Assembly: GCA_038087875.1 (NCBI GenBank)
Contig: CM075991.1
Location: 8,992,001 to 9,056,000, forward strand
Source of the DNA: Malacoraja senta
Taxonomy: Eukaryota
Reading direction: 5' to 3'
DNA: 64,000 nucleotides
Under the pieces are notes generated by a model. It was not told the DNA's origin. It made no database searches and was given only the letters and a program-made list of their open reading frames with translations. The position numbers and the translations under genes were made by a program. Of this stretch, positions 23,223 through 63,707 are shown piece by piece. The first letter of the stretch is position 1. Each line of letters opens with the position of its first letter.

Positions 23223-23660
23223 ATCTTCTTCTTCTTAGGCCCCCTTCGGTCATGGCTGACCATGGGTGTCTCCAGGGTGCTATTCTTTATATGGAGGACG
23301 CCTGTGCGTGACTTTGTTTAACGTGGGGAGACTGGTGCACTGACAGCCACCACACGGTCCTTGACAGATCTGGGTCAGGATCCAGTGGCGTGGAGTCCAA
23401 GACAACCGGAGACCCTTTTCTGTTGCAGCCTTCATCCGCCTTCCCAGCCGTTGTGACGCGACACTAAGGTCAGCCATCGTCCTCCTCCGCCTGTTCCACC
23501 GTTGAGGTCTTGGTTGGATTGCTCTTTGTCAGAGACCTCCCCCTCGACCTTACCGCCATGGGTGGCCCTACCAGGAGCATAGCTCCAGACGGCATCGCTC
23601 TCAGGATCTCAGGACCACACAAGCTTCTCCACCACGACAAGGTGACAATCCATGGAGAAG
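23223..23660 (-). mobile_element. Non-autonomous RTE-like retroposon (438 bp)
   Basis: TSD ACCCACACT (23214-23222 and 23661-23669) and (GAA)n tail. The 5' sequence CACCTTGTCGTGGTGGAG resembles RTE (Rex3/Expander-type) 5' ends. No convincing ORF. Confidence 0.75.
23516..23660 (-). ncRNA. Predicted HDV-like ribozyme with extended P4
   Basis: P1 CUUCUCC/GGAGAAG, P2 GGAUUGUC/G(A)GCAAUCC, P3 ACC/GGU, L3 UUGUCGU, J4/2 CAAA (C at 23528). Confidence 0.7.
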
Positions 23661-28788: not shown

Positions 28789-29029
28789 TTACAGCACTTG
28801 ACACCCGGGTTCGATCCTGACTGCGGGTGCTGTCTGTATGGAGTTTGTACATTCTCCCCGTGACCACGTGGGTTTTCTCCGAGTTCACTGGATTCCTCCT
28901 ACAATTTGAAAACATGCAGGTTTGTAGGTTAATTGGCTGCTGTAAATTGGCTGGGAATTTGAAGCTGCTATTTCTCACTACCCCTGATGAATTTTCTATC
29001 GAGCTCTCTTGTCTATTTATCTATTTCTC

Positions 29030-29083
29030 GGATTGGGAGATTGCAACCTTCACGTGGTCCACCCTGTTTCGACTAATGCAATC
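29030..29083 (+). ncRNA. Predicted minimal HDV-like ribozyme, P1 damaged
   Basis: Same fold, but the P1 5' strand reads GGAUUGG, giving two mismatches to CCACCCU. Confidence 0.6.
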
Positions 29084-29163
29084 AACCCAACGTGCACAAA
29101 CAAATAGATCAAATAGAACAAGTTGACCTACTTTAGGCTGTGCACGTCATACGCAAGAAGAAG
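29030..29163 (+). mobile_element. Short ribozyme-headed retroposon, copy A
   Basis: 11-bp TSD ATCTATTTCTC (29019-29029 and 29164-29174), (GAA)n tail, two substitutions in the P1 5' strand. Confidence 0.88.
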
Positions 29164-29185
29164 ATCTATTTCTCCATCAGTTAGT

Positions 29186-29186
<1 letters not shown>

Positions 29187-29279
<93 letters not shown>

Positions 29280-48262: not shown

Positions 48263-48500
48263 AAGTGCTACCAGCACTCAATCCATGCAGGTCACAACTC
48301 TTCTTCCAAATGATGCCTGGGTTGCAGCTAAAGTATGGGTGTGTGGTGCGAATACGATGGGATTAGCGCAGGATCAGTATAAATGAATGCTTAATGATCA
48401 GCACAGACCCGATCGACCAAAAGACTTGTTTAGTGCTGTACAGCTCTATGACTAAAGTTTCAATACTGCAGGATTTCGCCAGCAATTTGTCCTGGAGCAG

Positions 48501-48646
48501 TCTTCTTCTTCTTCTTCTTCCGTGTGGCGTGCACAGCCTAAAGTTGTAGGACAACTTGTTCTATTTGATCTTCCGTTTGTGCACGTCGAGTTGATTGCAT
48601 TAGTCGAAACAGGGCGGACCACGTGAAGGTTGCAATCTTCCACCCC
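48501..48646 (-). mobile_element. Short ribozyme-headed retroposon, copy C
   Basis: 11-bp TSD TCCTGGAGCAG (48490-48500 and 48647-48657), with (TTC)n on the plus strand. Confidence 0.9.
48593..48646 (-). ncRNA. Predicted minimal HDV-like (CPEB3-like) self-cleaving ribozyme
   Basis: GGGGUGG-AA-GAUUGCA-ACC-UUCACGU-GGU-CCGCCCU-GUUUCGA-CUAA-UGCAAUC. P1, P2, P3, P1.1 and the J4/2 catalytic C can all be assigned by eye. Confidence 0.8.
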
Positions 48647-49345
48647 TCCTGGAGCAGCCAGACCAAAACAATGACCAAGAAAGCACACCGATGGCTCTAC
48701 TTCCTCAGAAAGCATAGGAAATTTGGAGTGGCTCCAAAAACCCTCACCAACATCTACAGATAATAATAATAATAAATACTTTATTAATCCCCTTATTCAG
48801 GGGAAATTCAGATGTCCTTGCAGCACACTAATAAAAATACAACATAGCATTAAAGAAGAAGTTTAACATTAAAACATAAAACATAAAAAAGATGTGCCGT
48901 TTTTCGCGTTTTTTATCGGGATGCTTCACAGCTTGGTTAGGGAACAGCTCCATCCAAGACCGCGAAATTGCAGAATTGTGGACGTAACCCAGATCATCAC
49001 GCTAACTAACCTCCCTACCGTTGATTCCATCCATACTTCACGCTGCCTCGGCAAGGCCATCAGCGTATTCAAGGACCACTCTCACCCCAGCCACTCCCTC
49101 CTCTTCTCTCCGTCGAGGTAAGAGATTGGAAAAAGTTTCCCCCAAGTCCCCTCTCCCCCACATAAAACAAGCTAAAGAACACAAAAAAAACATTCATTTA
49201 ACACATACAAAACAGACACAATGAAGGAAAGGATAGACAGACTGTTGGCGAGGCAGCCATTGCTGACGCCACCTGGTGGTTCTCAAATGACACAACCCGG
49301 TGACTCTCAAATGGATGCGGGCTCTTGTTAACTTAGTTGGTCCTT

Positions 49346-50457
49346 GAAAAAATATACAAAAGATCATTATAATAACCCAGTAGATGTATTGGATGAGGCA
49401 ATGCAGATAAAAGCTGAATCAGCAAACTTAATATCATATTTGTATAATATTATCTTAAATGTACAAATACCATCTACGGAGGGTATCAGAAGAGACTGGG
49501 AACAAGAGTTAGCTATTAAAATTTCAAAGGAAAGTTGGAATGAACACTTATTAAACGTGCATAAATGTTCGATTAATGTAAGACACACTTTAATACAATT
49601 AAAAATTTTACATAGATTATATTATTCGAAAACTAAAATTCATAAAATTTTCACAAATGTATCATCTATTTGTGATAAATGTCAATCTCAAGAAGCTACC
49701 ATAGCGCACTCATTCGTTTTCTGTACAAAAATTCAAAAATTTTGGAATGAAATTTTTGAAATCTTTACAAAGTTATTTAAAATAAGACTGATACCCAAAG
49801 CAGAATGGATTATCTTCGGAATAACGGAAGATGGCCCAGAACTAAATGTGTTTCAAAAGAAACTAATGGACTATGGGTTAATAACTGGAAAAAAGCTAAT
49901 TCTAAAATTTTGGAAGAAGGCTCCAATACCAACTATAAATATGTGGACTTCAAATATGTTCGAAACATTACACCTAGAAGAGATAAGACTCCTCCTAGCA
50001 GGTAAACCAGATCACTTCCACCTGACGTGGTCTGCATTTATAGAATTATTACAAATATAGGGTGCAAAAGTACTTTAAAAAAATTAAAAAAATTGAGGTC
50101 AGGTAAGGGGGGATGCTAGTTGAAGAGTTGGTATGTCCCATTTACGTAATGCTCATAAAAATATTTGTTTCTCTTTTTCCTCTTTCTCTTTCTCTTTCTT
50201 TTCTAGGGTCTATTTCTTAACTCTTTTTCTTTTGTTTTTTAATTTTGCTCTTATAGGGTCTTCGTCCTTTTTTTGTTGTCACATTTTCTACACTTTCACT
50301 TTTTCCTTCACTTTCTTCTTTCTTTCAATCTTTTCTTTTTCTAGTGTAAAAAATAAATGGAGTAGATTAATTGTAAGAAGACATAAGTGACGAGTACTAA
50401 TGTATGTGGTTGTAATGTAATGTACTTCTAATAAATACAAATAAAAAAATAAAAAAA
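49346..50457 (+). mobile_element. 5'-truncated L1-clade LINE (ORF2 C-terminus, 3'UTR, poly-A)
   Basis: ORF to 50060 with KILHRLYYS..CDKC..AHSFVFC zinc knuckle. TSD AACTTAGTTGGTCCTT (49330-49345 and 50458-50473). Confidence 0.9.
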
Positions 50458-50718
50458 AACTTAGTTGGTCCTTCAAAATGCCTTGGCATATTCAGGGCAC
50501 TGTTACTGTGCTAATCATTGCTACCATCTCCAATGCATCCCTCAACTGATCTCAATGCAGCTACCTGTTGAGTTAACCCTTCCCTTTGCATGGGAACCTG
50601 ATCTTTGTGTGTCCCATGCCATAGGAAGACCAACAATCAAAGTTGAAGCTCTGAGATAGGTGGAGACATTTGTATGATTTCTTGTTGTCACATTGAAATG
50701 TGACAAAGATTAATCTAA

Positions 50719-50955: not shown

Positions 50956-53050
50956 TGACATTGCAACCTGTGTTCTTCAATTAAACTGAAACTCCCCGAC
51001 GACATCTATCAGGGAAGTTGGATTCCAATCAAAAAGGATTCAAGCCGTCCATCGCTAAATCCTTGCTTGTCTATAATTTAGTACAGAAGAGACTTCCTCC
51101 TTAGCACCTGTGAATATCCAGCTGGACAAGTCGCCAGTACCATGAGGAATGATATATCACAGAGGACAGAGATATCACTTTGATTTAGTTGGTTATTTTC
51201 TTCATCACAGCACCCACTTCATGGACTGCTGATTGCAATTCATTACTTTTATTTATCTCCTGGGGACCTTGGGTTTCCGAATTAACTGATACCAGTTTGT
51301 CAGCTCCACGTTTGTCAGCTCATCACTCTCTTCCTAAAGCTAAGTAACGGCATCAAAATTAATCTTCTTCAACGAAGACAATCGCACAACACGCAATCTG
51401 CACCCATCTGGCGAGGGCTCGTACATTGTCAGCCCAGCTGGCAATTGTAACAGGACCGAACGGGTACTTACCAGAGCTATAATACGCCCAAACCCTACAT
51501 AAGGCCAAGTGAAGATCTCACCAATCCCACCCCAGACCAAATGACTAATTTATGGTTAAATAAAAAGACTGATAATTAGGCTAAAGATCTCCCATGCTAA
51601 AAGACTAACTAGAAGCATCACTTCATAGGATGAAGGCACTTGTCTGCTCTGAACATTTCCAAAAGTTCCAATATTGGGTCATCTGGCCCTTTGTGCCTGT
51701 TCGGTCATATTGCTTCTACCTCAGGTTCCTATTAGAGTCATAGAGTCATAGTGTGGAAACAGGCCCTTCGGCCTAACTTGCCCACACCAGCCAATATGTC
51801 CCATCTACACGTCCCACCTGCCTGCGTTTGGCCCATATCCCTCTAAACGTCTTATTTCACATAGTGCAATCAGCTGATGACTCCAGTTTCCTGCCACACT
51901 CCAAAGACTTAGAGGTTTGTAGGCACATGTCTGGCACTAAAGATAAATATATTTTAGTGTAACGTGCAGTAAGGTACAGCGAAAAGCTTTGGTTGCGTGC
52001 TAACCAGCCAGCGGCAAGACAATTCATGATTTGTTGCTTTATTTTTAGTATGGTTGTATGGTAATTTTTATGGCACTTTTTCTCACCGAGAGTGGTGAGT
52101 GTGGAATTCTCTGCCTCAAGAGGGCGGTGGAGGCAGGTTCTCTGGATGCTTTCAAGAGAGAGCTAGATAGGGCTCTTAAAAATAGCGGAGTCAGGGGATA
52201 TGGGGAAAAGGCAGGAACGGGGTACTGATTGGGGATGATCAGCCATGATCACATTGAATGGTGGTGCTGGCTCAAAGGGCCAAATGGCCTACTCCTGCAC
52301 CTATTGTCTATTGTCTATTGTAATTAGAATTTCACTGCACCTGAATTGGTACAGGTGAGAATAAACAGGCCTTTGAACCTTTGATTACAATCGAGCTGTC
52401 CACAGTGTACAGATCCATGATAAAGGGAATAATGTGAATAATATTTAGACATAAACGTATCTTAATATCTTAACATATCATATTTTAACATATCATGCAC
52501 TCTGATGTGCAAGATATTTGTAATGTCCCTTGTGATAAAAAATAGAATATAAAGTATATTATATATATAATATATGTATATTATGATATAAATGTAAAAA
52601 GTAATGTCCCTTGTGCAAGATATTTGGACAGAGCAGGTTACCTTCACACAAACTGACGGCAGGAAAAGTTGTTTTGCCTTTAGTTCGAAATTTCGCCCCC
52701 GGCTCTCCTGTAGAAATGAAATTCAAATTTCCAGTTTAGGTGAAAATTTAAATCTGATGGTAAATTGCACTCAATATTGCACTCGGTTGCAATTATCCCC
52801 TCAAACTTTTGCCCCGTCAGAAAAATAAATCATTCCAGTCGGGTAATTGCATTTTTTAAAAAAAGTGTGCGCGATTAAAGCAAAAATGAGGAATGGGCCG
52901 TTCAGCCCCACTAGCGTGTTCTGCCATTTGACAAGATAATTACAGATCTAGGAATTTTCTTTCATACCCCTTGATAACGCAGAGAGTTGTGGACTCAGTG
53001 CAGATCATCAAGCAAACTACTCTACCTACCCTTCATGTTACCTCAGGGAA

Positions 53051-53104
53051 GGGGTGGGAGATTGCAACCTTCATGTGGTCCACCTTGTTTCGACTAATGC
53101 AATC
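53051..53104 (+). ncRNA. Predicted minimal HDV-like ribozyme
   Basis: Same fold. L3 variant UUCAUGU, P1' CCACCUU, catalytic C at 53094. Confidence 0.75.
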
Positions 53105-53189
53105 AACTCGACGTGCACAAACAGAAGATCAAATAGAACAAGTTGACCTACAACTTTAGGCTGTGCACGCCGTACGCAAGACGAAGAAG
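53051..53189 (+). mobile_element. Short ribozyme-headed retroposon (SINE-like), copy B
   Basis: 11-bp TSD ACCTCAGGGAA (53040-53050 and 53190-53200), (GAA)n tail, near-identical to 29030-29163 and 48501-48646. Confidence 0.9.
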
Positions 53190-54192
53190 ACCTCAGGGAA
53201 TCACCCAACACAATGTAGGTGTTCTCACACCCAGTCTTTCTCTCTCTTCTCCCCTGGGCAGCAGATACAAAAGCACGTACAACCAGATTCCAAACCCTTC
53301 TACCCTACCCTACTCTGCCCTACTCTAGGACCTCTCATATACTAAAGATGAATACTTGCTCTCCTGATCTGCCTCTTTGTGGCCCTTGCACTTCTTTTGT
53401 AAGTAAGTAAGTTTATTGGCCAAGTATTCACATACAAGGAATTTGCCTTGGTGCTCCGCCCACAAGTAACAACATGACATACAGTGACAGTTACGAATGA
53501 CTCAGAAAACACTAAACATTAATAATAATAAAACATTAATGATAAAACACCATTGATCAAGCATGTGAACCAACAAAATACCAGATCAAAGGGAGGCTAC
53601 AGATTTTTGGCTGTTGAGTAGAGCAACTACTCGTGGATAAAAACTGTGGGGTTTTTTAATCACATTTTCCCTGTAGCTGTAACAACATATGAATATTGGT
53701 TTCTCTAACTTCAAGTAACCCCTGCATCCCCTCTCTCGCTGTCCCTCCTCCACCCTCGTTGTTGCCTTCGTTTTACTGTCAACCTGTTTGTGTCACTCGT
53801 TACCACCTTCACCACAGGTGATGGATGGTCAGCATAAACCTGGTGGGTCGAAGGGCCTATTTCCATGTTGCTTGATTGTATAACAGTTAAATAGTCATTG
53901 TAAATTGTACAGCTAGAAGAGTCGCAGCCTCAGAGCTCCAACGCATCTGCTTCAATCCTGACATTAGGTGCTGTCTGTGTGGAGTTTGCAGGTTCACCCT
54001 GTGACTGCACGGGTTTCCTCTGGGTGCTCAAAGTCGTGCAGGTCAATAAGGTAATTGCAACCACTATAAATGTTTCCTTCGTTTAGGTGAGTGGTAAAGT
54101 CCAGGGATAACTGAGCGGAATGTGCGGAGAGTAAATTGGGATGAGTTAAGTAGATGCTTGTTGCTGGCACAGAGTCAATGATTCAATTCATT

Positions 54193-59217: not shown

Positions 59218-60200
59218 TTATATATTTGCAGCTTCTAATATTTTCTCTGCAAATAAATCTGGTTTCATCAACGGCTTATTATAAAAAGTTCTGAATGTCG
59301 TTTCCCTCGACCATCCTGCTGTATTCAGAATATGGTCAACCGGTACGTCCATTCTTTCCGCCGTTGATGTAGATGCTGCCCTAGTGGAATGAGATTTAAA
59401 TGTATTAGTATCTATTCCGGCAGCCTTCAGCACCTGATTGAGCCATCTTGCAATGGTTTGGCTCGTTACCTGGCCATGAGGTTTCTTGTGGCTGACCCAT
59501 AAGGCTTTTTCACTCCCTCTGATATTGTGGGTTGTGTCTATATAATGTTGTAGATGGGTCACGACACACAACCGTGGCTCTTGTGGGTAGGCCCGGAATA
59601 CCACCAGTGGATTAGCTGTTCCTGGCCTGCTTTGCTTCATCAGACCCTGTATGATGAATGTGATCTGATCTGGGGTGGTCACCATGTTGCCCAGCCTTAA
59701 CTTGTGTAGTGACTGAACCCTCTGAGCGGATACGAGTGCCATCAACATGAGCGTCTTTAGTGTAGATTGCTCGAGGCTGAGGGATCTGGCTGGTGGCCAT
59801 TCCCTGAGGTATGTCAGGACCACACTGATATCCCAAATATGGGTATACCTGGGTTTAGGGGCTTGATATTATAAATACCCTTCATCAGTTTTACCACCAG
59901 TGGATGTGATCCCATTGCCTGTTGTCCTGCTGGTTTGAGATACGCAGAAAGAGCACTCCGCGCTGTGTTGATGGCACTGTAACTAATCCCTTCATCATGG
60001 TGTAGATGGGCCAGGAACTCCAGTACGTTGGTGGCTGTGGCTGTTGCATACGTTGTTCCTGTTTCCTGGCAGTACTTCTCCCATTTTCTTATGCTGCTTA
60101 AGTACTGCCTCTTGGTGGATGTTCGAAGGGATGCCGACATGGTGGTGATGGTACGTTCGGACAATCCCAGTTCCAGATAAGGTCTATTCAAAACCTGCAA
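59218..60200 (-). pseudogene. DIRS tyrosine recombinase, frameshift near 59860
   Basis: N-terminal SAM-like part (STKRQY..W..YC, SYSAINTARSAL). Catalytic part with SAQRV, K, HSTRAAS, AGWS and TFRTFY (R-K-H-R-W-Y pattern). Confidence 0.9.
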
Positions 60201-60599
60201 CCCAGGAGTTTAATTTTCTCATGACATGGGTGGCTTATGCCTGTTACTGGGTGAGTTAATAATCCTGGATCACTGGGAAAGACCATTGGTGACTCAACCA
60301 CCATGTCATGTAGAACCGGGAACCATGGCTGTGTAGGCCAGTCGGGCACCATCAAAATTCCAGAAGCAGAGTCCATCTGTATTTTGCGAAGTACCCGACT
60401 GATGAGGCAGAAGGGAGGGAAAGCATAGAAGAAGAACTTTCCCAATCAGCGTGAAGGCATCTAGCGCTGCTGCCTCTGGGTCTGGTTCCCAAGCGACATA
60501 CATAGGTAACTGGTGATTTAGTCGTGATGCAAATAAATCAATATCTGGCATTCCATACTGCTTAATAACTTTAGCAAATACTTTAGGTTTAACATCCAT
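60188..60599 (-). pseudogene. DIRS DAM-like (N6-adenine) methyltransferase domain, split by a frameshift
   Basis: PDIDLFASRLN...DAF in one frame and YAFPPF...VPDWPTQPWFP in the next are the characteristic DIRS1 MT motifs. Confidence 0.85.
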
Positions 60600-60975
60600 T
60601 CTATGTTATCATTGAATTTGCGTGACCTGGTGTCTGCCACTTTGTTTTGCTTACCTGGTAGATAAGTAGCTGATAGCCAAATATGTCTTTCGACACACCA
60701 TTGCCAAATCACATTGACCAATTTGTCGCATGATAGTGATTTTATGCCGCCCATATGGTTAATATAAGCCACCACCGTAGTATTATCTATTTGTAACCGA
60801 ACATGCAAGTGCTGCATAGTAGATACATATGCTTTTAAACCATAAAAGGCTCCCAACATCTCTAGATAGTTAATGCCCAGTGTCAGTAGTAACGATGACT
60901 CTAGGTTAGTCCATCTACCACCTGTGCTGGATATGGAGTTAGTTGCTCCCCAGCCTTGAGCACTGGCATCTGTTG
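60518..60975 (-). pseudogene. DIRS RNase H domain
   Basis: INYLEML, IDNTTVVAYINHMGG and YLPGKQNKVADTRSR are typical DIRS RNase H motifs. Confidence 0.88.
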
Positions 60976-62208
60976 AAGAACTAAAGTAGGGTTAGTGATA
61001 ATGATAGAGCTGACACTATGCCAAACATTTTCTGCCCACCACTGTAGCTCTGATATTGCTTCAGTGGGTAATTTCATGACACGATCATAGTGACCTGTAT
61101 GTCGTTTTAGTGCCTGTACCTTTGCTCTTTGTAAATTTTGATAGTGCAAAGGTCCGAATTGTGTAGCCGGAAATGCTGCTACCATTTTCCCAATCACTCT
61201 TGCTACTTGTCGAATAGTTGGTCGTTTGTTGACCATTAAATTGTTGCATGATTGTGCTAATGCAACCATTTTTTCCTTTGGCAAGGTAACAGTCATATGG
61301 ACTGAGTTAATTGTGAAGCCCAGGTAGTCCATGATAGTGGATGGCTTCAACTTAGATTTATCTGGATGTATGATGAACCCCAGAGTTTCGAGGAGCTGTT
61401 TTGTAGCTGATACTGCTGCCACAGCCAATTCCTTCATTTTCCCTACTATCAGAATATCATCCAAATATGCCATGACAATAAGTTTTTGTTTTCTTAGTAT
61501 TGCCATGGCTATTTTCAATATTTTGGTAAATAATCTTGGGGCCGAAGTTAGCCCATTGGGCAATGCTTTGTACTGCCACAGCTGCCCCAACCAGATAAAT
61601 TTTAGGTATCTGCAATGATCTTTGTGTATGGGGACTGAATAGTACGCATCTTTAAGATCAATGCTTGCCATGAAGTATCCTTTGGAAATCAGTTGTTTGG
61701 CAGTAACAAATGTTTCCATTTTGAAATGTATATACTGAACAAACTTATTTAGTGATCTTAAGTCGATGAGGATGCGACATCCCCCATCTTTTTTGGTTTT
61801 AGTGAATATATTTGATACAAATTCCAAAGGTTCATGTTTGGTCTTTTCGATGACCCCCTTTGTGATAAGTCTCACCAGTTCAGCTTGTCCCTCATGTTTC
61901 TCTTTGACGGAGGGAGAAAATACCCTTTGGGGCCAATGTTGAACTGGCGGCGATTGTTCTGACATGAACTGAATTTTATATCCACTAATGCTGTTGAGTA
62001 TATACTTGTCACTCGTGACAGTAACCCATGCTTCTTTAAACAAGTGTAATCTCCCCCCTGTTAGTAAAGCACCCTTATTCTCTATATGCTGGCAGGAACC
62101 AGACCCACCTACCTCCATGGTTATTGGTGTTTCTTTTGTTTCCTGAGGTTTTTGTACGGTTTGTTTGTCTGACGTGCTGGCGATGTTGGGGGGTGGCGCA
62201 TTTTCCAT
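60901..62208 (-). pseudogene. DIRS reverse transcriptase domain (frameshift at the RT/RNase H junction)
   Basis: Motifs GGRL, KKDGGCR..IDLRSLN, FKMET, IDLKDAY, ALPNGL..APRLFTK, YLDD, YLGF. The frame is lost near 60970, where the expected DAS..GWG continues in another frame. Confidence 0.93.
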
Positions 62209-63422
62209 GGGGTCCGCTGTGGGCCCTGATCTAAAAAAGATCTTTGGGGATAAAATGCGGTCCCCGAGCTTTCACCAGTCCCATATTGAGGATGTCGACT
62301 GGTGGATGCCATGGGGTGCTGCCGCTTGGGTATTGCAGCTCTTGGTTTGCTCGTCCCGGGGCCTGCCCTCATGAGGCCGAATGTTTTCGCTGCTTCCTCC
62401 ATGTCCCTCAGTTTTTTATTGAGGTCTTTCCCAAATAACAGAGCATCCGTCTCTGCAGCTGGGGCTCTGCACAACCCAGCAAATTTGGGATTGAGGGCAG
62501 GTCTTATGTTTTCGCGCCGGAGATTGTTGATTTCAAATTGTGTGTTGCACATCAGTGCCAGCACATCCTGCTGGCACGTATCCATCTCCGTACTATCCAC
62601 AGAACGAGCAAAGGCTGTTATGGCTGACGTCAGGAGCCTCAGGATCCGCTGTAGCTTGACTTCATGGTTACGCATGTTTGACCCCACGTGCCCCCAGATC
62701 TGGCTGTTCACAGTCTTCACTCTGAGGGCCTCACAGTTCTCTGGTGCTGTGTACAGTTCAAGCGCCTCTAGCAGTACCTTCTCCTGCAAGGGCTTATTTG
62801 ATAGATGATTTATGCTGGCCGCCATTTTTGGTTCCAGCGGTCTTCCAGCACGTGGGGTTGCTACATAGCGGTCCACGACACCCAGCAGCTCTTCCTGCTC
62901 CTGCACCCCTTGCATACCGCCGAATTCGTCCGCCAGCCCCTGTTCCAGACCAGCCCAACCCTGGTCACCAATGCTAGCCTCCAGTAATGAGGGAGCAGAG
63001 GGCAGTGCACAAGACACTGTGGAGGAGGTGCCTGACCTACCTCCGCGGGAACGCTCCTTCTGCGCATCCCGCTGGAGCATCTGCTCCAAGAGCTGTTGTA
63101 AGCTCTGGCAGCTGTCTCTCCTCCGTTTCGGTGGAGACATGTCCCACTCCGACGAATCAGAAATGACCGGCCGGATACTTTTTCTCATGGCTTTCCTCCC
63201 TGTCCGCTGTGCAGGCATTAGCGGGACTGGGCTCGGCTCGGTCTCGGGGATAGCGGAGCGCTCTATGTGCGTTCCTGCCGCCTGTTGCTGTCCCCCTGCG
63301 ATTGAACGCTCCTCTGGTGGAGATGAGCTGGGGGCAGTTCTCTTCGAGAGTCTTTTCTTTTGTGAACTCATTTCGTAAGTACACGTCTTTAACTCTCCTT
63401 CTCCGTTAGATAACTTCAGCAT
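62121..63422 (-). CDS. DIRS ORF1 (gag-like), 433 aa, uninterrupted
   Basis: Long open ORF directly upstream of and overlapping the RT ORF. It contains LLFGKDL and RRENIRPALN-type motifs resembling DIRS gag C-termini. The true start may be the internal Met (MSSQKK). Confidence 0.8.
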   Translation of the reverse strand: MLKLSNGEGELKTCTYEMSSQKKRLSKRTAPSSSPPEERSIAGGQQQAAGTHIERSAIPETEPSPVPLMPAQRTGRKAMRKSIRPVISDSSEWDMSPPKRRRDSCQSLQQLLEQMLQRDAQKERSRGGRSGTSSTVSCALPSAPSLLEASIGDQGWAGLEQGLADEFGGMQGVQEQEELLGVVDRYVATPRAGRPLEPKMAASINHLSNKPLQEKVLLEALELYTAPENCEALRVKTVNSQIWGHVGSNMRNHEVKLQRILRLLTSAITAFARSVDSTEMDTCQQDVLALMCNTQFEINNLRRENIRPALNPKFAGLCRAPAAETDALLFGKDLNKKLRDMEEAAKTFGLMRAGPGTSKPRAAIPKRQHPMASTSRHPQYGTGESSGTAFYPQRSFLDQGPQRTPWKMRHPPTSPARQTNKPYKNLRKQKKHQ

Positions 63423-63707
63423 ACTTACCCAACGGTCCGTCTTTTAAACTGCAGCCGGAGCGCCTTCCTCCAGCTGCCGCCGCTGTTGCACTGCTGGCGT
63501 AATGCCGCGCCTGCGCACTGAGCGGGTTCTTCACGAAGTCACTCACGTGACTCCGAAGTAAAATCTGTAGGCTCCTTTGGTGCAGCTGCAAGTACTAACA
63601 CTCAGACTGAAGTCAAACTTGCAATGGGAAACTTGTTACCGAGGGCATTCTGGAATTGACAAGGTTTATCTGCTACAAACAAAGCCTCAAACACCTACCA
63701 ACAGTGA

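What the first reader, a model, noticed from the sequence alone, without database searches (positions are those of the whole stretch)
48501..48646. SINE-like family headed by a 54-nt minimal CPEB3-like HDV ribozyme (3 copies: 29030+, 48646-, 53051+)
Seen: three 134-146 bp copies, each with an 11-bp TSD and a (GAA)n tail, and with no tRNA A/B boxes. The first 54 nt fold as a nested double pseudoknot: P1 GGGGUGG/CCRCCYU with a G1-U wobble, P2 GAUUGCA/UGCAAUC, P3 ACC/GGU, L3 UUCACGU, a one-pair P1.1, P4 reduced to U-UUCG-A, and J4/2 CUAA. In all three copies the TSD-defined 5' end is exactly G1, the predicted cleavage site. Known: HDV-like ribozymes process the 5' ends of R2, RTE and L1Tc retrotransposons. 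From recall, the mammalian CPEB3 ribozyme has the same L3 (UUCACGU) and GU after P1'. Inference: this is a promoter-less retroposon that cuts itself out of host read-through transcripts and is mobilised by an RTE-clade LINE. It could be a mobile relative or analogue of the CPEB3 ribozyme. I do not know of this family being described, but I cannot search.
Basis: partly seen in the sequence, partly recalled or inferred. Interest (0 to 1): 0.92.

Follow-up and report, generated by a model that had tools for sequence, protein, structure and literature searches.

The report
Ribozyme-headed short retroposon, thousands of copies
A 125-base mobile element present in thousands of near-identical copies begins with a very small HDV-type self-cutting RNA fold that most likely trims the element's own 5' end, a known strategy of retrotransposons seen here in an unusually minimal form.

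Summary
All three copies exist with 11-bp target-site duplications (TSDs) and (GAA)n tails. The family is large and young: the 22-nt core occurs 4,645 times in the 1.94-Gb genome, with hundreds of identical 54-nt heads. Of 30 copies picked by their 3' part alone, 29 begin at G1, 1 is truncated and none extends upstream.

The first 54 nt satisfy a full HDV-like descriptor. That descriptor hits nothing else in the window and 3 sites in 100 shuffles. Only two of 4,227 Rfam families align, both HDV ribozymes and both far below threshold.

The strongest evidence is new. Two other retroposon families (one at window 23660-23224, minus strand) carry a homologous ~146-150-nt head with a long P4. All 7 P1 pairs and the P1.1 pair change on both sides yet stay paired.

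A candidate partner LINE with RTE-like layout was found, but its 5' end could not be read. Specific kinship to the CPEB3 ribozyme is not supported. Ribozyme-headed non-autonomous elements are already described, so this is a new member of a known kind. Cleavage itself is untested.

The parts
48501..48646 (-). Copy B, a full-length element of the young subfamily (126 nt plus a 20-nt tail)
48593..48646 (-). 54-nt HDV-like head. P1 is nt 1-7/30-36, P2 10-16/48-54, P3 17-19/27-29, L3 20-26, P1.1 C22-G37. P4 is reduced to U38-UUCG-A43. J4/2 is C44-U-A-A. Predicted cleavage is 5' of G1 (48646).
48521..48592 (-). Body / 3' module. It has a long-range stem CGUGCAC/GUGCACG enclosing the hairpin AAGUUG-UCCUA-CAACUU, and ends in ACACGGAA before the tail (most young copies read ACACGAAA).
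   Evidence: MFE -16.4 kcal/mol, z -1.8
48501..48520 (-). (GAA)n tail
48647..48657 (-). 5' target-site duplication CTGCTCCAGGA of copy B
48490..48500 (-). 3' target-site duplication of copy B
29030..29163 (+). Copy A, older subfamily, decayed (two P1 mismatches). TSD at 29019-29029 and 29164-29174.
53051..53189 (+). Copy C, older subfamily (G8, A32, L3 UUCAUGU). TSD at 53040-53050 and 53190-53200.
23224..23660 (-). Element 'E', a second non-autonomous (GAA)n-tailed retroposon of 437 nt. TSD AGTGTGGGT at 23669-23661 and 23222-23214. Its head is homologous to the head of the short element.
23515..23660 (-). 146-nt full-size HDV-like head of element E. P1 is CUUCUCC/GGAGAAG, P3 ACC/GGU, L3 UUGUCGU, P1.1 G-C. 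The P4 domain is 94 nt, J4/2 is CAAA(GAG), and P2 is UGGAUUG/CAAUCCA.
   Evidence: no Rfam match

Best explanation
The element is a ~125-nt non-autonomous non-LTR retroposon. It is not a classical Pol III SINE.

Shown by sequence and covariation: its first 54 nt form a minimal (P4-less) HDV-like self-cleaving ribozyme fold.

Inferred working: copies are transcribed as parts of longer host or neighbouring transcripts. The head folds and cleaves the chain just 5' of G1. The ribozyme stays on the downstream product, so every new copy inherits it and starts at G1.

Inferred from TSDs, tails and 5'-truncated copies: the 3' module plus the (GAA)n tail is taken in trans by the reverse transcriptase of a (GAA)n-tailed LINE, and is copied into the genome by target-primed reverse transcription.

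The best partner candidate is a low-copy LINE with an RTE-like layout. The head is one of a set of homologous ribozyme heads shared by at least three retroposon families in this genome. The short element carries the version whose ~92-nt P4 domain has been deleted.
For: (1) Anatomy. Every canonical part of the fold is present in copy B. A descriptor of my own, written from recalled class features, finds only this site in both strands of the window. It finds 3 sites in 100 dinucleotide shuffles, about 2e-7 per position and strand.

(2) Rfam. On the 60 nt around the head, only 2 of 4,227 Rfam families align at E<=10. Both are HDV ribozymes, both are full-length, and both put G1 on the model's cleavage-site G: RF02682 at 16 bits (E 0.22) and RF00094 at 13.3 bits (E 3.4).

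(3) 5' ends. 30 of 30 and 29 of 30 copies start at G1 with unrelated upstream DNA. None carries upstream sequence.

(4) Covariation. Element E (window) and element F (L043) have a homologous core (GAUUG..ACCUU..CGUGGU), conserved GAC-N-AA, and TSD-defined 5' ends at nt 1 of P1. Their P1 strands differ from the short element's yet stay complementary. On the 5-row alignment, 92.7% of cells pair, against 34-55% when partners are slid. 8 of 11 pairs change on both sides (P1 7 of 7, P1.1 1 of 1), and 0 of 500 shuffles reach the score. A genome-wide pattern gives 1,415 E/F-type heads. Among the 100 listed rows, by my eye count, the two consensus P1 helices, (C)UUCUCC/GGAGAA(G) and UCCCCG/CGGGGA, differ by three double changes.

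(5) Shared variants. The only variants carried by many copies are nt 8 (unpaired), nt 32 (U-G to U-A) and nt 45 (second base of J4/2), all tolerated by the fold.

(6) No Pol III head. ARAGORN gave 0 genes and Rfam has no tRNA, 5S or 7SL match. The weak B-box-like GTTTCGAC lies inside the ribozyme and is absent from E and F.

(7) LINE-type mobility. An exact TSD of 6-15 bp (>=7 bp in 25) was found in 26 of 30 copies. There are 5'-truncated copies with TSDs. 4,645 exact cores and hundreds of identical heads show recent activity.

(8) Partner candidate. L095 ends an ORF 25 nt before ...GACACGAAAA(GAA)n. Relatives carry RVT_1. Intact frames of 1,008 and 1,014 aa exist in the genome. The young subfamily's 3' end reads ACACGAAA, as in this LINE, while the older reads ATACGCAA.
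Against: No cleavage or RNA 5'-end data exist.

Both Rfam matches are far below gathering scores (16 against 44, and 13.3 against 50). Copy C and element E give no Rfam match at all.

Nested-only folding of the head is no better than shuffles (z 0.03).

P4 is a single U-A pair around UUCG and P1.1 is a single pair, so activity could be weak.

Elements E and F begin with C1, not the usual G1. The L043 copy of F has two unpaired P1 positions.

The covariation rests on only three lineages and five rows.

In the one laid library that is on record as RNA (X18), both contigs laid run on into unlike sequence. One spans G1 with 85 nt upstream. So uncleaved molecules, or DNA, exist there.

The partner LINE shares only 8 nt plus the tail with the element. 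Its 5' end was not seen. No longer element carrying the same ribozyme 3' half was found (4 hits, all variants of the short element).
Confidence: 0.85

Rival explanations
1. The head is a real, conserved double-pseudoknot structure but does not cleave. It would serve as a binding site for the LINE protein or as a translation or stability element, copied from a LINE 5' UTR. The uniform 5' end would come from a transcription start at G1.
For: Covariation proves a structure, not catalysis. The review PMC6765202 (passages read) says that R2 protein binds its ribozyme region and that HDV-like folds can act like an IRES. P4 and P1.1 are minimal in the short element, and E and F start with C1. An RNA-library contig spans G1.
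Against: The bases conserved across the three families are those needed for catalysis rather than for helices: U20, C24 and G25 of L3, and the C of J4/2 followed by N-A-A. Their role is recalled from the HDV ribozyme literature. The element has no ORF to translate. No promoter motif was found. The 5' end coincides to the base with the class's cleavage site in all three families.
Confidence: 0.09
2. The HDV-like fold is a coincidence. The head is an unrecognised Pol III (or other) promoter-bearing small-RNA derivative, making this an ordinary SINE of unknown head type.
For: The Rfam scores are sub-threshold. The descriptor was written after seeing the candidate. GTTTCGAC resembles a B box in 6 of 9 specified positions (my reading against a recalled consensus). 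Uniform 5' ends are also what a Pol III start gives.
Against: The chance of the descriptor matching at one given position is about 2e-7. The only two Rfam alignments are both HDV ribozymes in the same register. Compensatory changes occur in 8 of 11 pairs across homologous heads. There is no A box and no tRNA, 5S or 7SL likeness. The B-box-like stretch is not conserved in E or F.
Confidence: 0.03
3. On origin (compatible with the ribozyme reading): the element is a 'bipartite' internally deleted derivative of one autonomous LINE. It would keep that LINE's own 5' ribozyme and 3' end, rather than being a chimera that captured a head from another family.
For: Kojima 2018 (PMC5786205, passages read) describes ORF-less bipartite elements of the RTE, Ingi, Vingi and R2 clades that keep the LINE's 5' end, and links this to 5' ribozymes. 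R2 SIDEs do the same (PMC3414825, abstract seen). Element E looks like such a deletion product.
Against: No longer element carries the ribozyme's 3' 18 nt followed by other sequence (4 hits, all short-element variants). None carries the 3' 18- or 23-nt blocks behind other sequence (only truncated copies; 0 hits). Homologous heads sit on different tails, (GAA)n in E and (GTAA)n in F, which suggests that heads are exchanged. The candidate LINE shares only 8 nt plus the tail.
Confidence: 0.35

Closest known systems
HDV-like ribozymes at the 5' ends of non-LTR retrotransposons (R2, RTE, Baggins, L1Tc; Eickbush 2010, Ruminski 2011, Sanchez-Luque 2011, as cited in PMC6765202 and PMC5786205)
   Same: Same fold. 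Cleavage is at the element's first base. The presumed role is the same: release of a promoter-less element from a longer transcript, with the ribozyme staying on the product.
   Different: Those are autonomous LINEs with larger ribozymes. Here the carrier is a 125-nt ORF-less element and the ribozyme is 54 nt with P4 reduced to one pair.
Ribozyme-headed non-autonomous elements: R2 SIDEs (PMC3414825), NARTc and SIDER of trypanosomatids (PMC3383444, PMC4035085), and bipartite non-autonomous RTE elements (PMC5786205)
   Same: All are ORF-less elements made of a LINE-type 5' ribozyme plus a 3' module used in trans. This is the same kind of element.
   Different: Insertion is dispersed rather than rDNA-specific. 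The host differs and the size is much smaller. No parent LINE with the same head was found here. The head is shared among families with different tails.
Minimal HDV-like ribozymes without a P4 hairpin (Riccitelli 2014, as cited in PMC10879173; theta ribozymes of gut phages, PMC10879173)
   Same: Same size class. P4 is dispensable and the core is kept.
   Different: Those come from microbial and phage sequences, next to tRNAs or genes. This one heads a eukaryotic retroposon, and full-size relatives of it exist in the same genome.
Mammalian CPEB3 intronic ribozyme (Rfam RF00622)
   Same: It belongs to the HDV-like class. The L3 heptamer UUCACGU is shared (TTCACGT stands in a CPEB3-ribozyme primer in PMC10274809). 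P1.1 is weak in both (recalled).
   Different: CPEB3 is single-copy, intronic and has a real P4. The Rfam CPEB3 model does not match the element at E<=10, while HDV models do. No evidence of common descent was obtained.
Hammerhead-bearing SINE-like elements of Schistosoma and animal retrozymes (PMC6765202, PMC7229834)
   Same: Short non-autonomous retroposons that carry a self-cleaving ribozyme.
   Different: The ribozyme class differs. Those cut multimeric or tandem transcripts, and retrozymes make circular RNA. Here copies are dispersed singly and cleavage is at the 5' end only.

Membership tests
HDV-like self-cleaving ribozyme class | P1 helix of about 7 bp that starts at the cleavage site, with a G1-U wobble | tested here: met
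   GGGGUGG/CCGCCCU with G1-U36. All 7 pairs change on both sides in homologous heads. E and F have C1-G instead of G1-U.
HDV-like self-cleaving ribozyme class | P2 pseudoknot helix closing the fold at the 3' end | tested here: met
   GAUUGCA/UGCAAUC, duplex -7.6 kcal/mol. E has UGGAUUG/CAAUCCA and F has UGGAUUG/UGAUCCA.
HDV-like self-cleaving ribozyme class | 3-bp P3 closed by a 7-nt L3 with conserved U at the start and CG near the end | tested here: met
   ACC-UUCACGU-GGU, aligned to L3 of RF02682 and RF00094. P3 is invariant in 5 of 5 rows.
HDV-like self-cleaving ribozyme class | P1.1 between L3 and J1/4 (the nested second pseudoknot) | tested here: met
   Only one pair, C22-G37, but it is swapped to G-C in E and F.
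HDV-like self-cleaving ribozyme class | P4 helix | tested here: inconclusive
   In the short element it is one U-A pair around UUCG. E and F have 94-97-nt P4 domains that fold at -31 and -37 kcal/mol. P4-less natural members are in print (PMC10879173, passages).
HDV-like self-cleaving ribozyme class | Catalytic C as the first base of J4/2, followed by N-A-A | tested here: met
   The short element has CUAA (a CGAA variant holds about 7-19% of the depth). E has CAAA and F has CGAA.
HDV-like self-cleaving ribozyme class | Score at or above an Rfam family's gathering threshold | tested here: not met
   RF02682 scores 16 against 44 bits and RF00094 13.3 against 50 bits. Copy C and element E have no match.
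HDV-like self-cleaving ribozyme class | Site-specific self-cleavage giving 5'-OH and 2',3'-cyclic phosphate | not testable with these tools
   Only contigs were available for laying.
CPEB3 ribozyme (RF00622) | Match to the family model | tested here: not met
   No match at E<=10 on the 60-nt stretch.
CPEB3 ribozyme (RF00622) | Single conserved copy in an intron of CPEB3 | tested here: not met
   4,645 dispersed copies with TSDs.
SINE in the strict sense | Head derived from tRNA, 7SL, 5S or snRNA with an internal Pol III promoter | tested here: not met
   ARAGORN gave 0 genes and Rfam has no such match.
SINE in the strict sense | LINE-dependent insertion marks: TSD, simple-repeat tail, 5' truncation | tested here: met
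Bipartite non-autonomous LINE / SIDE | 5' part identical to the 5' end of an autonomous LINE | tested here: inconclusive
   No longer element has the same ribozyme 3' 18 nt. The 5' end of the candidate LINE could not be fetched.
Bipartite non-autonomous LINE / SIDE | 3' part identical to the 3' end of that LINE | tested here: inconclusive
   Only ACACGAAA plus (GAA)n is shared with the candidate LINE. The 18- and 23-nt 3' blocks are never found behind other sequence.
RTE-clade LINE as partner | Single ORF of about 1,000 aa, very short 3' UTR, simple-repeat tail | tested here: met
   Open frames of 1,008 and 1,014 aa. The stop codon is 25 nt before (GAA)n. RVT_1 is present in relatives. The endonuclease part was not seen.
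RTE-clade LINE as partner | Phylogenetic placement of the reverse transcriptase within RTE | not tested
   No reference RTE sequences were on hand. The Atlas look-up was uninformative.

The most novel reading that the evidence does not exclude
The ribozyme head is a modular cassette that moves between retroposon families of this (probably vertebrate) genome. It has re-paired P1 helices and can be stripped to 54 nt. Heads of this lineage, which share the L3 heptamer and weak P1.1 of the CPEB3 ribozyme, would then be the kind of source from which the single-copy mammalian CPEB3 ribozyme was once exapted.
Probability: 0.1. Interest if true: 0.8.

Novelty: new member of a known kind. Interest (0 to 1): 0.5.

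Why it matters
If the head cleaves, this is among the smallest natural HDV-like ribozymes in a eukaryote. It sits on a retroposon that was active very recently, with hundreds of identical heads.

The genome holds full-size and P4-deleted versions of one ribozyme lineage side by side, with naturally re-paired P1 helices. That is a ready-made series for asking what P4 and P1.1 contribute to folding and rate.

It also shows that a 54-nt ribozyme plus a ~70-nt 3' module is enough for large-scale amplification without any promoter of its own.

It adds a case of ribozyme heads being shared among families with different tails. The link to the origin of the CPEB3 ribozyme is only a lead.

Tried and rejected
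Plain MFE folding gave no signal: head z 0.03 and full element z -0.17. Nested-only energies cannot see the pseudoknots.

Hunt for the partner LINE:
- Negative-set patterns found no longer element carrying the head's 3' half.
- The hairpin block turned up only 5'-truncated copies.
- The last 18 nt gave 0 hits.
- The best RVT_1 hits are L1-like elements with poly-A tails (L086-L089).
- An RT fragment upstream of a recurrent GAAGAAGAAGA site (L090) led to a CR1-like LINE with an ACCAAGAA-type end (L093).
- Another such site (L091) lies 2.2 kb from an unrelated CR1-like LINE ending in TTCTATG repeats (L094).
- A third recurrent site is inside an L1-like ORF (L092).

My recalled idea that Rex3 ends in (GAA)n was wrong. 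The review PMC6274825 gives GCG(GAA)2(GATG)n.

Sequencing runs: all runs served were contigs. Three of the four laid are only guessed to be RNA, so nothing can be said on expression, RNA starts or cleavage.

Rfam on element E gave nothing. The protein Atlas gave no clade for the LINE. Earlier notes of this scan held nothing.

Ruminski 2011 and Webb 2009 are not held. I know them only through citing papers and recall.

One literature search on cartilaginous fishes was badly designed and uninformative.

Full report
OBSERVATION.
- Copy B: 48646..48501, minus strand.
- Copy A: 29030-29163, plus strand.
- Copy C: 53051-53189, plus strand.
Each is flanked by an exact 11-bp target-site duplication (TSD) and ends in a (GAA)n run. 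A 22-nt core pattern with up to 3 mismatches finds these three sites and nothing else in the window, against 0 in 100 shuffles. Copy B is intact. Copy C has lost the CG of the L3 loop (UUCAUGU), and copy A has two mismatches in P1.

THE FAMILY.
- The window lies in a 1.94-Gb assembly.
- The whole element has more than 1,100 first-look candidates. All 40 that were scored are 97-100% identical.
- The exact 22-nt core occurs 4,645 times (2,310 + 2,335), and the reversed control 0 times.
- The 54-nt head of copy B occurs 4,259 times within 3 mismatches. All 100 rows listed are exact matches.
- So the family is large and was active very recently.
- Two subfamilies are visible. The young one has A8, G32 and a 3' end reading ACACGAAA. 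The older one has G8, A32 and ATACGCAA; copies A and C belong to it.
- Runs of six coded organisms hold the element's words at a share of 0.85-1.00.

ENDS AND MODE OF INSERTION.
- In 30 of 30 best full-length loci, homology stops at G1 and the upstream DNA is unrelated.
- Exact TSDs of 6-15 bp (>=7 bp in 25) were found in 26 of these 30. The other 4 have very long tails or an imperfect duplication.
- To avoid choosing for full length, I searched with the 3' 70 nt alone. Of the 30 loci returned, 9 were already in the first set. 29 reach G1, some with small indels; 1 is truncated near nt 19; none continues upstream.
- Copies truncated further 3', each with its own TSD, also exist.
- TSDs, a simple-repeat tail and occasional 5' truncation are the marks of target-primed reverse transcription by a LINE enzyme.

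IS THE HEAD AN HDV-LIKE RIBOZYME?
Copy B has all the parts in the canonical order:
- P1, nt 1-7 with 30-36 (G1-U36 wobble, U5-G32)
- P2, nt 10-16 with 48-54
- P3, nt 17-19 with 27-29
- L3, UUCACGU
- G37 opposite C22 (P1.1)
- a vestigial P4 (U38, UUCG, A43)
- J4/2, C44-U-A-A

I wrote a descriptor from the class's recalled features:
- G1
- a 7-bp P1 with at most 1 mismatch
- a 3-bp Watson-Crick P3
- a 7-8-nt L3 starting with U and carrying CG
- G after P1' with a C in L3
- C-N-A-A followed by a P2 of at least 5 bp

It hits only copy B in both strands of the window. It hits 3 sites in 100 dinucleotide shuffles, about 0.03 per window or 2e-7 per position and strand. The descriptor was written after seeing the candidate, so it measures how demanding the class features are; it is not a blind test.

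Rfam gives no match at gathering thresholds. With permissive settings on the 60 nt around the head, only two of 4,227 families align. Both are HDV ribozymes, both are end to end, and both place G1 on the model's cleavage-site G: RF02682 at 16 bits (E 0.22) and RF00094 at 13.3 bits (E 3.4). These scores are far below threshold, and copy C gives nothing. The CPEB3 model does not appear at all.

COVARIATION FROM RELATIVES IN THE SAME GENOME. This is the new and strongest evidence.
- While listing other (GAA)n-tailed repeats, I found one in the window itself. Element E is 23660..23224 on the minus strand, 437 nt, with TSD AGTGTGGGT.
- Its first 146 nt share the core GAUUG..ACCUU..CGUGGU with the short element.
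- A third element, F in locus L043, has the same core, a (GTAA)n tail and TSD TATCC(A/C)TTT.
- E and F are 74% identical over 117 aligned bases of their heads.
- In both, the TSD puts the 5' end at the first base of P1.
- Their P1 strands are entirely different from the short element's, yet complementary: E has CUUCUCC/GGAGAAG and F has CUCCCCG/CGGGG...
- The P1.1 pair is swapped, from C-G in the short element to G-C in E and F.
- J4/2 keeps C-N-A-A (CAAA in E, CGAA in F).
- P2 forms in both, and a 94-97-nt P4 domain folds into a long stem.

On a 5-row alignment of the collinear 40 columns:
- 92.7% of cells are standard pairs, against 34-55% when the partners are slid by 1-3 columns.
- 8 of 11 pairs change on both sides (P1 7 of 7, P1.1 1 of 1; P3 never varies).
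- 0 of 500 shuffles reach the covariation score.

A genome-wide pattern finds 1,415 E/F-type heads. By my eye count, the 100 rows listed are about three quarters E-type and one quarter F-type. Their consensus P1 helices, (C)UUCUCC/GGAGAA(G) and UCCCCG/CGGGGA, differ by three double changes. The two unpaired cells in the L043 copy are therefore private decay.

Caveats: there are only three lineages. E and F start with C, not the usual G. E has no Rfam match.

The short element's head reads as the same ribozyme with the P4 domain deleted.

OTHER POINTS FOR AND AGAINST.
- Within the short family, only three variants are carried by many copies: nt 8 (unpaired), nt 32 (U-G to U-A) and nt 45 (second base of J4/2; 7-19% of depth in the three runs that show it). 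All three are tolerated by the fold. I estimate that about 28% of all single changes would be tolerated, so 3 of 3 is only suggestive.
- There is no tRNA-like head. The weak B-box-like GTTTCGAC lies inside the ribozyme and is not kept in E or F.
- No RNA evidence could be had. All runs served were contigs, and three of the four laid are only guessed to be RNA.
- In the one laid library that is on record as RNA (X18), both contigs run on into unlike sequence. One spans G1 with 85 nt upstream. So uncleaved molecules, or DNA, exist there.

PARTNER.
- The head's 3' half, the hairpin block and the last 18 nt were never found joined to other sequence. No parent LINE with identical ends exists in this assembly.
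- Among recurrent sequences in front of (GAA)n runs, one is the end of a LINE. In L095 an ORF stops 25 nt before ...GACACGAAAA(GAA)n.
- Relatives of this C-terminal piece carry RVT_1.
- The genome holds a few dozen copies at 78-90% identity, among them open frames of 1,008 and 1,014 aa.
- A single ORF of about 1,000 aa, a tiny 3' UTR and a simple-repeat tail is the RTE-like layout. The clade was not tested.
- This LINE, the young short-element subfamily and one further family (...GAUGGACACGAAA(GAA)n) share ACACGAAA directly before the tail. The older short-element subfamily reads ATACGCAA. This fits tuning of the 3' end to this enzyme, but the match is only 8 nt.

COMPARISON WITH WHAT IS KNOWN.
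- HDV-like ribozymes that cut at the first base of R2, RTE, Baggins and L1Tc elements are well described.
- So are ORF-less elements that keep such a head: R2 SIDEs (PMC3414825, abstract), NARTc and SIDER (PMC3383444 and PMC4035085, abstracts and passages), and bipartite non-autonomous RTE elements (PMC5786205, passages).
- The review PMC6765202 states that some non-autonomous SINEs use HDV-like ribozymes (passages).
- P4-less minimal HDV-like ribozymes are known from microbial and phage sequence (PMC10879173, passages).
- The element is therefore a new member of a known kind. Its particular features are the 54-nt head on a 125-nt element, the recent burst, and the coexistence of full-size and minimal versions of one head lineage on different tails.
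- My six literature searches found no description of this family. Dfam and Repbase could not be searched, and Ruminski 2011 and Webb 2009 were not readable.
- The CPEB3 link rests on one shared heptamer. It is not supported as kinship.

VERDICT. The HDV-like structure is well supported by anatomy, end position and covariation. Catalysis and the read-through life cycle are inferred. The partner is a candidate only. CPEB3 kinship and novelty of kind are not supported.

Noticed in passing
window 23224-23660 (-): Element E is a 437-nt (GAA)n-tailed ORF-less retroposon with a full-size (146-nt) HDV-like head homologous to the short element's head. The genome holds 1,415 E/F-type heads.
   Followed up: yes
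L043 646-990 (-): Element F has the same head lineage but a (GTAA)n tail and TSD TATCC(A/C)TTT. This suggests that ribozyme heads are shared among families served by different LINEs.
   Followed up: partly
Genome-wide table: By my eye count, roughly one in seven of the 100 listed E-type heads has unrelated sequence in place of the P1 5' strand. Several start exactly at GUGGAUUG (nt 8). This is a recurrent 5' end just behind P1 that I cannot explain.
   Followed up: no
window 48579-48646, seen in runs X16, X17, X18: A variant in which nt 1-68 of the short element are followed directly by a second complete element starting at G1 (head dimer). It has depth of a few hundred in the two guessed-RNA runs against tens of thousands for the monomer, and depth 4 in X18.
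   Followed up: no
L095 149-665, and places listed: A low-copy LINE with intact ~1,010-aa frames, a stop codon 25 nt before a (GAA)n tail, and the 3' end GACACGAAAA. A second LINE group at about 51% protein identity also exists.
   Followed up: partly
Genome-wide tables; L020 near 1440: Further recurrent families end in (GAA)n...GAGGAGCAAAGGGCUUAA...GAUGGACACGAAA and ...UACUCCUUUGAAACUAACAUCAAG. Their nature is unknown.
   Followed up: no
window 49332-50460 (+): The 3' part of an L1-like LINE (zf-RVT match) with an A-rich tail, about 700 bp from copy B.
   Followed up: partly
window 59218-63443 (-): A DIRS-like retroelement with reverse transcriptase, an RNase H-like part and a tyrosine recombinase (Phage_integrase) in successive frames.
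   Followed up: partly
window 29176-29250 (+): A long (ATCT)n microsatellite directly downstream of copy A. Its TSD (ATCTATTTCTC) lies in related sequence.
   Followed up: no
L093, L094: Two abundant CR1-like LINE families, with open frames of 1,249 and 989 aa. One ends in TTCTATG repeats and one in ACCAAGAA-like repeats.
   Followed up: partly
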